DNA of 64,000 bases from Heptranchias perlo (taxonomy: Eukaryota), in assembly GCF_035084215.1 (NCBI RefSeq), contig NW_027139559.1, positions 7,440,001 through 7,504,000 on the forward strand, given 5' to 3'. The position numbers were made by a program, and so were the translations under genes. Shown here piece by piece: positions 3,260-17,400 of the stretch (positions are counted from its first letter, which is position 1; every line of letters starts with the position of its first letter). Under the pieces are notes generated by a model that was not told the origin of the DNA, searched no databases, and saw only the letters and a list, made by a program, of their open reading frames with translations.

Positions 3260-3310
3260 CAGAGTTCACAGTCAGCACGGTGCCAGCTCCATCATAGTAT
3301 TGGTAATAAC
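3260..3310 (-). CDS. IgNAR-J: IgNAR J gene segment (YYQYYDGAGTVLTVNS-G) with phase-1 GTAAGT donor
   Basis: G-x-G-T-x-L-T-V J motif; donor GT at 3259-3258; 23-RSS immediately 5'. Confidence 0.95.
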
Positions 3311-3349
3311 CACAGTCATTCAGATCCCAGTAAGCCTCGTTCAAAAAGG
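3311..3349 (+). other. J 23-RSS: CACAGTC + 23 bp + TCAAAAAGG
   Basis: Heptamer 3311-3317, spacer 3318-3340, nonamer 3341-3349. Confidence 0.9.
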
Positions 3350-3661
3350 GTCATTGAATCTAAGGTCCGTTAATAAATACACCAAAACACACGGCTCCAA
3401 GGACCTTTCCAATACACTGGAGTCATTAATCCAGCTTCATTTTCCGTCAGTTTCTGTCCATCCAGATATTTACTATGTGCAATGCGAACTCCTGTCGCAC
3501 TGAAAAAGACAAGGCATTGATTTAAGATCAGGGAATTCAGCTCGATTATAACCAAAGGTCGGATTGGAATTGATTTCAAACTCAATGCAGTAACAACCAT
3601 AAGGTAGAAAGCACATTATGCAGACACCTTCACGAGTAGTAAAACAAATAACTGTTGGAGA

Positions 3662-3729
3662 GGTTTGTGCCGTGACCCGAGTCACTGTGTCACACCAGCA
3701 ACACATCGCTTCAGATCAGCACAAGAAAT
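3662..3729 (-). other. IgNAR-D3: IgNAR D3 segment (TTGCTGGTGTGA, 3690-3701) flanked by 12/12 RSS
   Basis: 3' RSS CACAGTG (3689-3683) + 12 + GCACAAACC (3670-3662); 5' RSS CACATCG (3702-3708) + 12 + ACAAGAAAT (3721-3729). Confidence 0.88.
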
Positions 3730-4043
3730 CCATTGGTACAAACATCACAGAAATCCCTTCAGATAGTCCGAGATATTGATTGAAAGTAATTCAAATCATT
3801 GCCTTTATTTTGGGATCCCAGTAGACGTTTAGAATTCTCAGTCGCTTATGCCAATCCTGGAGAAATATCAATGTTCCATTATGGATATGATTATAACATT
3901 TCCACAACAATCAACTAAATTAATAGACAAAAGGTCTTAACATATCGGCCAGTGTCTGACAGAGACAGTGAGCATTTGACGGTGAAGTTTTTAGCCATCT
4001 GGAGAATAACCTGTATTAACTTTGTATTAAGAGGTTTGGGTAC

Positions 4044-4122
4044 AGTTTATGTGTTACGGGAATCCAAGATTCATTACTGTGGTATACCCAGCCACACAGT
4101 CACAGAGACCAGTGCAAAAAAG
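4044..4122 (-). other. IgNAR-D2: IgNAR D2 segment (TGGCTGGGTATAC, 4082-4094) flanked by 12/22 RSS
   Basis: 5' RSS CACAGTC (4095-4101) + 12 + GCAAAAAAG (4114-4122); 3' RSS CACAGTA (4081-4075) + 22 + ACATAAACT (4052-4044). Confidence 0.92.
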
Positions 4123-4310
4123 GTGCCATATGAATTAATACAAGAGCCTCAGGTCGAGACCCATACTGTAAACCACATTCCTGCCATAATACCTCTGATC
4201 AGCGATTTTTACATCCAGGAGTATTATCCATCCAAAATACTGAGTATCGACACTTCCTAATTAAGCAACAGATAAATACTGCTCCTTTTCCCATAACAAA
4301 GTATGCTGAT

Positions 4311-4389
4311 AGTTTGTGCATTACAGGAACCGTCTCCTCGATTGCTGTGGCTCCCATAGTACACAGTGGTACAGCCCAGTGCAAAAAAA
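4311..4389 (-). other. IgNAR-D1: IgNAR D1 segment (TACTATGGGAGC, 4350-4361) flanked by 12/23 RSS
   Basis: 5' RSS CACAGTG (4362-4368) + 12 + GCAAAAAAA (4381-4389); 3' RSS CACAGCA (4349-4343) + 23 + GCACAAACT (4319-4311). Confidence 0.92.
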
Positions 4390-4587
4390 AGGTTCACCTG
4401 CGTAACTGTAAGGAGAACAGCCGCGCTGCATATCCAACTGTCCCGTGCCGGGGTCTTTGCTGCGGACATTGTCACCAGTTATTTACAAACCTCCCCCAGT
4501 CTCAGACAGGAATCAGCGGCTGCACAGTGAAAGATTCGGTGAAAAAAGCGAAACGACCCGTATTTTCTTCTACGGGAGGTTAGAAGG

Positions 4588-4625
4588 TGTTTTTGTATTG
4601 GTGAAAGCTCAGACTCATTGCTGTG
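4588..4625 (-). other. V 3' RSS (two-turn, 22-bp spacer): CACAGCA + 22 + ACAAAAACA
   Basis: Heptamer 4625-4619 directly after the YYCKAQS codons; nonamer 4596-4588. Confidence 0.93.
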
Positions 4626-4897
4626 GCTCTGAGCTTTGCAGTAATAAGTCGCGCTGTCTTCAGCTGTCAGGTCGTTGATTCTCAGAGAAAAAGACTTTGC
4701 TCCCTTGTTGACTGATTCGACAAATCGTCCGCTAATGGATATGCGAACCCAATCTTTTGTACCCGGATATTGCCGGAACCATCCTGTGGTGTGCAACCCA
4801 CAGTTAGTATCGGTAAAGACGCAGTTGATTGTCAGGGATTCGCCTGCCTCTTTTGTGGCCGTTCTTGGTGTTTGGTCGACTCTTGCACCGAAGGCAT
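4626..4897 (-). CDS. IgNAR-V: IgNAR variable (VNAR) exon, germline, type II-like (extra CDR1 Cys29)
   Basis: [22 protein letters not shown](22)VFTDTNC(29)GLHTTGW(36)FRQ...[31 protein letters not shown](83)KAQS; 87-aa mature domain lacking CDR2; acceptor TTTTTCTCCATTCAG ending at 4898. Confidence 0.97.
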
Positions 4898-5038: not shown

Positions 5039-5081
5039 TCGGTAACCAGGCTAAAAGGACCGAAACCCAGAAAATATTCAT
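5039..5081 (-). CDS. IgNAR-L: IgNAR leader exon ([15 protein letters not shown]; spliced leader [18 protein letters not shown])
   Basis: ATG at 5081; hydrophobic signal peptide; phase-1 GTAAGT donor at 5038-5033; 141-nt intron. Confidence 0.95.
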
Positions 5082-5784: not shown

Positions 5785-6960
5785 GAGAGCTCGCGATATT
5801 CAGAGTGGTTAGAAGTGGTTGGTGATATTCCACAGGATTCGGTTCAGAGAGCTCACTATATTCAGAGTGGTTGGAAGTGGGTAGTGATATCCCACAGAGA
5901 GCTCACTATATTCAGAGTGGTTGGAAGTGGGTAGTGATATCCCACAGAGAGCTCACTATATTCAGAGTGGGTGGAAGTTGGTAGTGATATCCCACAGAGA
6001 GCTCACTATATTCAGAGTGCTTGGAAGTGGTTGGTGATATTCCACAGGATTCGGTTCAGAGAGCTCACTATATTCAGACTGCTTGGAAGTGGGTAGTGAT
6101 ATCCCACAGAGAGCTCACTCTATTCAGAGTGGATGGAAGTGGGTAGTGATATCCCACAGGATTCGGTTCAGAGAGCATACTATATTCAGATTGGGTGAAA
6201 GTGGGTAGTAATATCCTACAGGATTCAGTTAAGAGAGCTCACTATATTCATAGTGGTTGCAAGTGGGTTGTGATATCCCACAGGATTCGATTCAGAGAGC
6301 TCGCTATATTCAGAGTGGTTGGAAGTGGGTAGTGATATCCCGCATAATTCGGTTCAGAAATCTCACGATATTCAGAGTGGTTGGAAGTGGTTGGTGATAT
6401 CCCACAAAATTCGGTTCAGAAAGCTCACGATATTCAGAGTGGTATGAAGTGGGTAGTGATATCCCACAGAGAGCTCACTATATCATTAGCTACATCATTA
6501 AATAAATTTAAAACAGAAATAGACAGTTTTTCTAGAAGTAAAGGGAATTAGGGGTTACGGGGAGCGGGCAGGAAATTGGACATGAATTTAGATTTGAGTT
6601 TAGGATCAGATCAGCCATGATATTATTGAATGGCGGAGCAGGCTCGAGGGGCCGATTGGCCTACTCCTGCTCTTATTTCTTATGTCCTTATGTTCTTATA
6701 CTATTCAGAGTGGTTGGAAGTGGGTAGTAATATCCCACAGAGAGTTGACTATATGCAGAGTGGGTGGAAGTGGGTAGTGATATCCCAAAGGATTCGGTTC
6801 AGAGAGCTAGCTATATTCAGAGTGGTAGGAAGTGGGTAGTGATATCGCACAGAGAGCTCGCTATATTCAGAGTGGTAGGAAGTGGGTAGTGATATCGCAC
6901 AGAGAGCTCGCTATATTTAGAGTGGTAGGAAGTGGGTAGTGATATCGCACAGAATTCGGT
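5785..6960 (+). repeat. 46/58-bp minisatellite derived from the LINE RT 'PQGSVL' motif, interrupted by a CR1 3'-end insertion (6484-6700)
   Basis: Unit AGAGAGCTCACTATATTCAGAGTGGTTGGAAGTGGGTAGTGATATCCCAC(AGGATTCGGTTC), roughly 18 copies. Confidence 0.9.
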
Positions 6961-15400: not shown

Positions 15401-17400
15401 ACCTGGTACACCTATACTTACATCACGGGTCTGTACAACTGAGGCGTAACTTGCTCCCCTCTGTATTCCAGCCTCCTTGAGAAATAGCCAAAACTCATCA
15501 ACCGTTTCGATTATTTCTTGTAACTCTCCCCCAGCATTTAATGATTGGTGTACTTGAACTCCCAAATCTCTATGCGCTTCTACAGTTCCCAGTTTCCCAC
15601 GATTTAGACAATTCTCCGATTTATCTTTCTTGTGTCCACTTGCTCACATTGAACTCCATCTGTCACAGTTTTTCCCACTCACTTATTCTACCTATGTCGC
15701 TTTTCAACGCCCTGCTCCCATCTGCACTACTTACTGTTCCTCCTAATTAGTGTCATCTGCAAACATGGATTTACACCTTTCTATTCCGTCACCCAAGGCA
15801 TTAATAACAATGGTGAAAAGTTGAAGCCAGAAACAGATAGATCATTGGAGAAGACCACATCTCAGATCCTGTCAATTCAAATACGTACCCTTTAGCCCCA
15901 CTCTCTGTCTCCGATCTCCCATCCAATTTCCAACCTGTGTCAAAGAGCTCCCTTCAATTCCGTACGCTCCCATTTTTTCTAATAATCTCCTGTGTGGAAC
16001 CTTATCGAACGCCTTCTGGAAGTCCAAACAGAAAATATCGATAGAAACTCCCACGTCTACCTTATTAGTGACCTCCTCATAAAATTCAACTTGATTAGGC
16101 CGACATGACTTACATTAACAAAGTCGTGCTGGCGCTCTCTGAACAGGTGATATTTGTTCACGTGCTCAGTCACCCTATCCCTAATGACAATCTGTAGTAA
16201 CTTCACTGGAGGCGAGCAATATTTACTCACTGCCGGGCGAAAGACGGGTTATAACGAATCGACAATCTGTTTTACACATGGCTCGGTTTTCTTCTCCATT
16301 TTTATCATCGATAAAACCTGGAGATGGGTAAGCCATTTTCTTGATGAGGGTAAGCAGCAGGTAGTAGTTTGGGGACTGATTTCGGGGTTAGAAGATTAGC
16401 GCAGTGCCCCAGGGATGGTCGTCAAGATTTCTACATTTCCTGAGTTTTATATGTGGCACCAATTCAAAATGTGATGTAAATTGGTCCAAATCACAGAAAA
16501 AAGAAGGGGTGTAGAGACTAATAGAAAAATCCGGTGAGTTACAGGAAAACCTCAATAATATTTTAATGTGGGCGGGACTACGACAGATGAAATATAATTC
16601 AGCTAATTAACATTGGAAGGAAAATGCAGAACATGCTTACTTGATGGTGCACAACTCAGTGAGGGAGAAGCTGAGAGAGATGGGGGTGGTCGGGGGCAGG
16701 TTTGTGTCTTCAGGGTCTGGGCCTACGGTATCACTAGTGGAATGAGGAAAATCAGGCGGAAAGAATCGTCCCTTGGTAAAGGAACCCGTCCGACATTCCT
16801 CCGACTAGAATAACAGTGTGTGATTCTCCCTACCTGATTTTCCTTTCTGCTCTGTACCCAGCCGATTGTTTCCAGCCATGTGCTAAAGCTGAACAATGGC
16901 CCATTGAAATATAGTAGAGAACAGAACCATATTGATGAAGGAAACCGAATGCTGGGCTACATTACCATCTCAGGAAGGCACAGTTCAAAGACTGTCACGT
17001 TGACTCTATATAGTGACCCGGTCAAGTCACGCCTTGGATACAGATTTCAGTTCGGGTTATTGGGGCGCAGCAGAATGGTCCAAGCCCTGGGAACGGTGCA
17101 AAGAAGGGCCACTGAGGTCATCTCTACTGTCAAGGGCCGGGTTATGAGCAAAGTCCAGTAAAGGGTGGATTATTTCGTCTTTAAAGGAGGCAGGTGCATT
17201 AGTGGACGCGGAAAGGTTAAACTGGAGCTCTACTTCAAGTTAAACCACGACTGCAGGTCAATGAGAAACAGGTGGAAACGGGTAAAAGGCAAGTTCAGGA
17301 CTGATGCAAGAAAGCACTTCTATCCACAAAGAATGACCACTCACGGGAATGGTCTTCCGGTGGGGCAGTGGAAGAAAAATCTTGAAATCATAAAACCGTC
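12440..17400. mobile_element. Cluster of degenerate CR1-like LINE fragments in both orientations
   Basis: RT/3' remnants: 12440-13200 (+), 13215-14350 (-), 14350-14760 (+), 14760-15065 (-), 15410-16205 (-), 16300-17400 (+); short unique islands between. Confidence 0.75.

What the first reader, a model, noticed from the sequence alone, without database searches (positions are those of the whole stretch)
3662..3729. 12/23 logic makes the Cys-Trp-Cys D3 obligatory: a hard-wired disulfide partner for CDR1 Cys29
Seen: V, D1 and D2 end in two-turn RSSs and J has a 23-RSS, so only D3 (12/12) can bridge to J while keeping V; D1 and D2 are skippable. D3 reads LLV-stop, C-W-C or A-G-V. D1 (YYGS/TMG/LWE) and D2 (WLGI/GWVY/AGY) contain no Cys and no stops. 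Established: type II VNARs form a CDR1-CDR3 disulfide. Inference: the locus routes every rearrangement through the only Cys-donating segment. One of its frames is stop-poisoned, and two Cys are offered so that one survives trimming at alternative registers.
Basis: partly seen in the sequence, partly recalled or inferred. Interest (0 to 1): 0.7.

Follow-up and report, generated by a model that had tools for sequence, protein, structure and literature searches.

The report
Shark antibody D3 supplies loop cysteine
This is an ordinary shark single-domain antibody (IgNAR) gene whose last D segment cannot be skipped under the 12/23 joining rule and is likely the usual source of the loop cysteine that would bond to Cys29, but selection of B cells, not the gene layout, likely ensures that exactly one such cysteine ends up in the antibody.

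Summary
Observation confirmed: a type II IgNAR cluster on the minus strand, V(Cys29)-22|12-D1-23|12-D2-22|12-D3-12|23-J. D frames read as stated, and all 21 rule-abiding V-J products contain D3. 'Hard-wired' is overclaimed. The 12/12 last D is generic: two conventional VH clusters and a NAR-like cassette in this genome have one with no Cys. A D-encoded CDR3 Cys in type II VNARs is in print (PMC6312525). Three of five unjoined clusters also offer a Cys in D2. In a no-selection simulation only 20-35% of productive joins carry a D3 Cys, and the stop barely shifts frame use. Yet 14 of 15 distinct expressed junctions shown (one sample) have exactly one Cys, so selection likely does the rest. In 8 of the other 11 the Cys comes from D2 or non-D3 bases. 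The scan noted this cluster family before. Ordinary; low interest.

The parts
5039..5081 (-). Leader exon
   Evidence: ATG at 5081; spliced joint 4897/5039
4626..4897 (-). VNAR V exon; Cys22, Cys29 (codon 4800-4802), Cys83
   Evidence: translation; joined paralog matches solved VNARs
4588..4625 (-). V 3' RSS, 22-bp spacer
4311..4389 (-). D1 (4350-4361) with 12-bp 5' RSS and 23-bp 3' RSS; no Cys
4044..4122 (-). D2 (4082-4094) with 12-bp 5' RSS and 22-bp 3' RSS; no Cys here, one Cys frame in paralogs L003-L005
3702..3729 (-). D3 5' RSS, 12-bp spacer, off-consensus heptamer shared by all 10 copies
3690..3701 (-). D3 coding: LLV-stop / CWC / AGV; no Cys when inverted
3662..3689 (-). D3 3' RSS, 12-bp spacer, consensus heptamer
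3311..3349 (-). J 5' RSS, 23-bp spacer
3260..3310 (-). J segment (no Cys in its coding frame), spliced to C1; five C exons lie beyond the window start at G000:C1392 about 7,425,100-7,433,950

Best explanation
This is a type II IgNAR gene cluster in which D3, the segment that the 12/23 rule makes unskippable, is likely the usual but not guaranteed donor of the CDR3 cysteine predicted to pair with CDR1 Cys29, and selection after rearrangement likely fixes the count at one. Shown: the layout, D3 obligacy by parity, the D frames, and one Cys in nearly all expressed junctions displayed. Inferred: RAG joins V(-D1)(-D2)-D3-J; trimming and N bases randomise frame and often erase D3; B cells whose VNAR has an unpaired Cys (none or two in CDR3) are lost or corrected by hypermutation, so survivors carry one Cys from D3, from D2 (paralogs) or from N/mutated bases. 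The 12/12 last D is likely ancestral layout; a Cys codon is plausibly kept there because every product passes through it.
For: All 21 enumerated V-J products contain D3. 10 of 10 germline D3 keep at least one Cys in the same frame while its position differs. 4 of 4 window-type junctions with letters are in frame with one Cys inside a D3 match of 5 nt or more in the CWC frame (read by hand; random expectation 0.126 each). The joined gene on C572 reads D3 in the CWC frame with the first Cys gone. 14 of 15 distinct junctions have exactly one Cys against 26-28% expected without selection (P about 1e-7). In 8 of the 11 other junctions the Cys is from D2 (2) or has no D3 match of 5 nt in the Cys frame (6). 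Cys-free 12/12 last D in L079, L081 and L048. PMC6312525 (passages): type II pairs one D-encoded CDR3 Cys with CDR1. PMC11641339 (passages): 55 of 66 type II VNARs have one CDR3 Cys (the same passage also gives an inconsistent 49 of 66 with one or more).
Against: Small, biased sample: one sample, contigs only, 12 of 36 rows shown and the best-supported kept, so likely expanded clones. Junction contigs are too short to show whether Cys29 is present in the same molecule. Three of the four window-type D3 traces are only 5 nt, and one lies 5' of a possible D2 trace. Trimming and N parameters in the simulation are assumed. The 11 other junctions cannot be assigned to a cluster, so within this cluster D3 could be nearly the sole donor. 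L004 has Tyr29 with an unchanged CWC D3, but is 99.3% like L003, so it tests little. The disulfide itself was not tested.
Confidence: 0.78

Rival explanations
1. One reading: the layout itself hard-wires a partner for Cys29 (obligatory D3, poisoned frame, two Cys as insurance).
For: D3 is obligatory and the sole germline Cys donor in this cluster. 4 of 4 window-type junctions fit D3 as donor; the first Cys is kept in 1 and the second in 3.
Against: Without selection 47-58% of productive joins lack Cys, 14-27% have two or more, and AGV is at least as common as CWC. Inverted D3 has no Cys. The 12/12 last D is generic and Cys-free elsewhere. Two Cys in only 4 of 10 D3.
Confidence: 0.1
2. D3's Cys is incidental: selection takes a Cys from any source, and G/T-rich D and N bases make Cys codons often enough.
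For: 6 of 15 junctions have a Cys with no D3 or D2 Cys-frame match of 5 nt or more, and 3 of these show a D3-like trace in a non-Cys frame. In simulation 34-53% of Cys-bearing joins have no D3 Cys.
Against: 10 of 10 D3 keep a Cys in one frame despite sequence change; 4 of 4 window-type junctions fit D3; the last D of non-IgNAR clusters has none.
Confidence: 0.12

Closest known systems
Nurse shark type II IgNAR cluster (PMC4622739, PMC6312525, PMC11641339; passages seen)
   Same: One V, three D, one J, five C; CDR1 Cys; a single CDR3 Cys described as D-encoded
   Different: Different species-level sequence; here the Cys source is mapped to D3 in one cluster type and to D2 or D3 in paralogs. The passages seen do not say which D gives the Cys.
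White-spotted bamboo shark IgNAR clusters (PMC8692893; passages and figure legend seen, figure not seen)
   Same: V-3D-J-5C clusters with 12-, 22- and 23-bp RSS; some clusters with pre-joined D; type II dominant (79%)
   Different: The RSS order per segment is in the figure, which I could not see; this genome has 11 VNAR loci found.
Shark IgM miniloci, V-D1-D2-J (PMC2435157; passages seen) and clusters L079/L081 in this genome
   Same: Parity layout with a 12/12 last D that cannot be skipped (shown for L079/L081; their J nonamer is weak, 4 mismatches at 23 bp)
   Different: Two D; last D has no Cys and no stop; V pairs with a light chain
Solved VNARs 7SPO (3B4), 7SPP (2C02), 9BN7
   Same: Best PDB matches to the joined paralog (E 8e-42, 7e-40, 2e-36); CDR1 Cys aligned at the Cys29 position and one CDR3 Cys
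   Different: Sequence comparison only; the bond in this protein was not modelled

Membership tests
IgNAR cluster | One V, three D, one J with RSS | tested here: met
IgNAR cluster | Five constant exons downstream, J spliced to C1 | tested here: met
   five Ig C-like exons; loose ends at 3260 match the start of C1 (read by hand)
IgNAR cluster | Short VNAR-type V lacking CDR2 | tested here: met
   87-aa V; joined paralog aligns without gaps over V to solved VNARs
IgNAR cluster | Light-chain-free homodimer in serum | not testable with these tools
   protein-level property
Type II VNAR | Non-canonical Cys in CDR1 | tested here: met
   Cys29
Type II VNAR | One Cys in CDR3 of expressed products | tested here: met
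   4 of 4 window-type junctions with letters
Type II VNAR | CDR1-CDR3 disulfide bond | not tested
   inferred from solved relatives and PMC4622739
Type I VNAR | Extra Cys in FR2 and FR4 | tested here: not met
   none in V FR2 or J
Type III VNAR | Conserved Trp in CDR1 beside the Cys | tested here: not met
   no Trp in CDR1
'Hard-wired partner' claim | D3 present in every 12/23-compliant V-J product | tested here: met
   21 of 21 enumerated products
'Hard-wired partner' claim | Layout alone delivers a D3 Cys to most productive joins | tested here: not met
   20-35% in five parameter sets (assumed parameters)
'Hard-wired partner' claim | D3 is the only germline Cys donor | tested here: inconclusive
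   true in 2 of 5 unjoined clusters (window, L002); D2 has a Cys frame in L003-L005

The most novel reading that the evidence does not exclude
Sharks split the job in two: evolution parks a Cys codon in the one D that parity makes unskippable (kept in one frame in all 10 D3 here, and re-used with a J Cys in clusters that lost Cys29), and a B-cell 'cysteine-parity' checkpoint then admits only VNARs with exactly one CDR3 Cys, using hypermutation to add or remove one. This locus, with a two-Cys D3, would be a clean test bed.
Probability: 0.35. Interest if true: 0.4.

Novelty: new member of a known kind. Interest (0 to 1): 0.2.

Why it matters
If the layered reading holds, it quantifies how much of the type II VNAR disulfide comes from germline layout and how much from selection. 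That bears on how single-domain antibodies stay stable and on where Cys is placed in synthetic VNAR libraries. The basic facts (three-D cluster, D-encoded CDR3 Cys pairing with CDR1) are already in print, so a specialist would not be surprised.

Tried and rejected
The look-up of sequencing runs listed no holder on record as RNA: no evidence either way; the four runs are 'RNA?' of one sample, though they show spliced joints. Three classic papers were not held (PMC24375, PMC21721, PMC4874517), so the statement that nurse shark D segments give Cys in preferred reading frames is recalled, not read; a search for 'preferred reading frame' with shark, NAR and cysteine found 0 papers. Searches showed no paper, at the level of listings and the passages read, that states the exact link 'obligatory 12/12 D3 = Cys donor'; older subscription papers are outside the library and supplements and figures (e.g. 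PMC8692893 Fig. 1B) were not seen. L004 (Tyr29, same D3) as a decoupling test: rejected as weak, 32 differences in 4750 from L003. A D3 variant reading S-C-S or G-C-S in transcripts with a window-like J was not found as an unjoined 12-nt D3 in the assembly (10 matches). Of 9 V-set stretches fetched for comparison, 2 were VH clusters with D segments; 7 showed no D within 3.6 kb and were not used. No structure prediction was run, because the tool does not report bond geometry. Junctions were classified by hand, not by script.

Full report
Observation. The window carries, on the minus strand, a leader (5039-5081), a V exon (4626-4897), three D segments and a J (3260-3310). The RSS order is V-22 | 12-D1-23 | 12-D2-22 | 12-D3-12 | 23-J (the consensus motifs used for the scan are recalled). 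The finding's coordinates 3662-3729 are exactly D3 with both RSS. V has Cys22, Cys29 and Cys83 and no FR2 Cys or CDR1 Trp; J has no Cys in frame. Five constant exons follow beyond the window start. A joined paralog's best PDB matches are VNARs, and three of the four alignments printed have the CDR1 Cys plus one CDR3 Cys. This is a type II IgNAR cluster of a cartilaginous fish.

Is D3 obligatory? Yes. An enumeration of deletional and inversional 12/23 joins gave 21 V-to-J products, all with D3, 11 with D3 inverted. Inverted D3 has no Cys in any frame; whether inversion happens here was not shown. The layout is not special to Cys delivery. Two conventional VH clusters (L079, L081) read V-23 | 12-D-23 | 12-D-12 | J, and a NAR-like cassette (L048) reads V-22 | 12-D-12 | 23-J; in all three the 12/12 D has no Cys in any forward frame. 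The J nonamer of L081 is weak (4 mismatches at 23 bp).

Paralogs. The genome holds 11 VNAR loci found by two searches (lower bound): 5 unjoined, 5 with V-D1-D2 pre-joined, 1 fully joined. All 10 D3 segments keep at least one Cys in the same frame: two Cys in 4, one in 6. D2 has a Cys frame in 3 of 5 unjoined clusters (L003-L005; L005 has a stop in V), so 'only Cys-donating segment' holds for the window and its copy L002 only. The five pre-joined clusters lack Cys29 yet have a Cys in D3 and one in J (also noted in e1-8593823). L004 has Tyr29 with the same D3 but differs from L003 at only 32 of 4750 sites. The fully joined gene on C572 has Cys29 and reads D3 in the CWC frame with only the second Cys.

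What the layout alone delivers. I simulated joins from the window's own segments with random trimming and N bases, in five assumed parameter sets. Among in-frame, stop-free joins, 20-35% carried a D3-derived Cys, 47-58% had no Cys, 26-28% exactly one and 14-27% two or more. D3 frame use was LLV 21-28%, CWC 35-39%, AGV 37-40%. The stop lies at the 3' end, is easily trimmed, and favours AGV as much as CWC. Two Cys raise the chance that one survives but also give joins that keep both (6-20%).

Expressed junctions. Four runs of one sample (guessed RNA, contigs only) show the leader-V splice, J-to-C1 loose ends and V-J joints. At 88% likeness 12 of 36 junction rows were displayed; at 100% likeness 5 V-J joints were listed, 4 with letters, one shared with the first set. 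I read these 15 distinct junctions by hand. All 15 are in frame; 14 have exactly one CDR3 Cys, 1 has none, none has two. Against 26-28% expected, 14 of 15 has P of about 1e-7. One match is 7 nt exact with the first Cys kept (row 3306/4626; depth 3.75, so possibly an error-prone contig); three are 5 nt with the second Cys, and one of these precedes a possible D2 trace. A random model gives 0.126 per junction, but it ignores the G/T bias of real junctions. Against the strong reading: of the other 11, the Cys comes from a different D3 variant in 2, from the D2 Cys frame in 2, from bases with no D3 or D2 Cys-frame match of 5 nt in 6, and is absent in 1. Three of the 6 show a D3-like trace of 6 nt or more in a non-Cys frame, one of them readable as the stop-bearing frame with the stop trimmed. 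These 11 cannot be assigned to a cluster. Limits: one sample, best-supported rows only, and Cys29 cannot be seen on the same contig.

Mechanism. Shown: layout, obligacy, frames, one Cys in 14 of 15 displayed junctions. Inferred: D3 is the usual donor in this cluster; selection against an unpaired Cys, with hypermutation and N bases as other sources, fixes the count at one; the Cys codon is likely kept in D3 because every product passes through it. The disulfide is assumed from solved relatives and reviews.

Known versus new. PMC6312525 (passages) states that type II VNARs bond one D-encoded CDR3 Cys to a CDR1 Cys. PMC4622739 (passages) describes the V-3D-J cluster and the types. PMC11641339 (passages) counts one CDR3 Cys in most type II sequences. 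PMC8692893 (passages and legend) maps 12-, 22- and 23-bp RSS in bamboo shark clusters; I did not see the figure. I did not find the exact phrase-level link between parity and Cys donation in the searches listed under Tried and rejected, but three classic papers were not held. The finding is a fair restatement of known features with an overclaimed design argument. Earlier scan notes cover the same cluster family.

Verdict. Observation confirmed, interpretation partly supported, new member of a known kind, interest 0.2.

Noticed in passing
L011/L024 (G000:C572, joint near 16,570; 36-kb contig): Fully joined in-frame VDJ with non-templated bases. DNA 5' of the joint is 99.2-99.6% like the L003 cluster and DNA 3' of it 98.5-98.9% like the window/L002 cluster, against 86-93% for L003. 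Could be an inter-cluster V-to-DJ join (rare by PMC2435157, passages), a join in an unassembled hybrid cluster, or an assembly chimera.
   Followed up: partly
window 3500-4397: A GT-AG spliced form that skips all three D segments (joint 3499/4398) stands in 3 of 4 runs: likely a spliced sterile germline transcript.
   Followed up: no
window 3702-3729 and paralogs: The D3 5' heptamer is off consensus at 2 places in all 10 copies while its 3' heptamer is consensus in 9 of 10; this might favour D3-to-J joining first.
   Followed up: no
L006-L010: Five clusters with V-D1-D2 pre-joined, no Cys29, a 20-nt D3 with one Cys and a J with one Cys; already noted by the scan.
   Followed up: partly
expressed junction rows 3306/4629, 3306/4625, 3303/4628: They carry a D3 variant with a window-like J that matches no unjoined cluster in the assembly: probably a cluster or allele missing from G000.
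   Followed up: partly
expressed junction row 3303/4635: An 11-nt stretch with the D2 trace occurs twice in one CDR3: a duplication by hypermutation or a contig artefact.
   Followed up: no
L048 (G000:C240:1293319-1296576): Divergent NAR-like V with a stop, one 12/12 D and a Cys-bearing J among many V genes; possibly a NAR-TCR cassette.
   Followed up: partly
window about 5800-6950: Tandem repeat of roughly 50-60-base units upstream of the leader, seen by eye.
   Followed up: no
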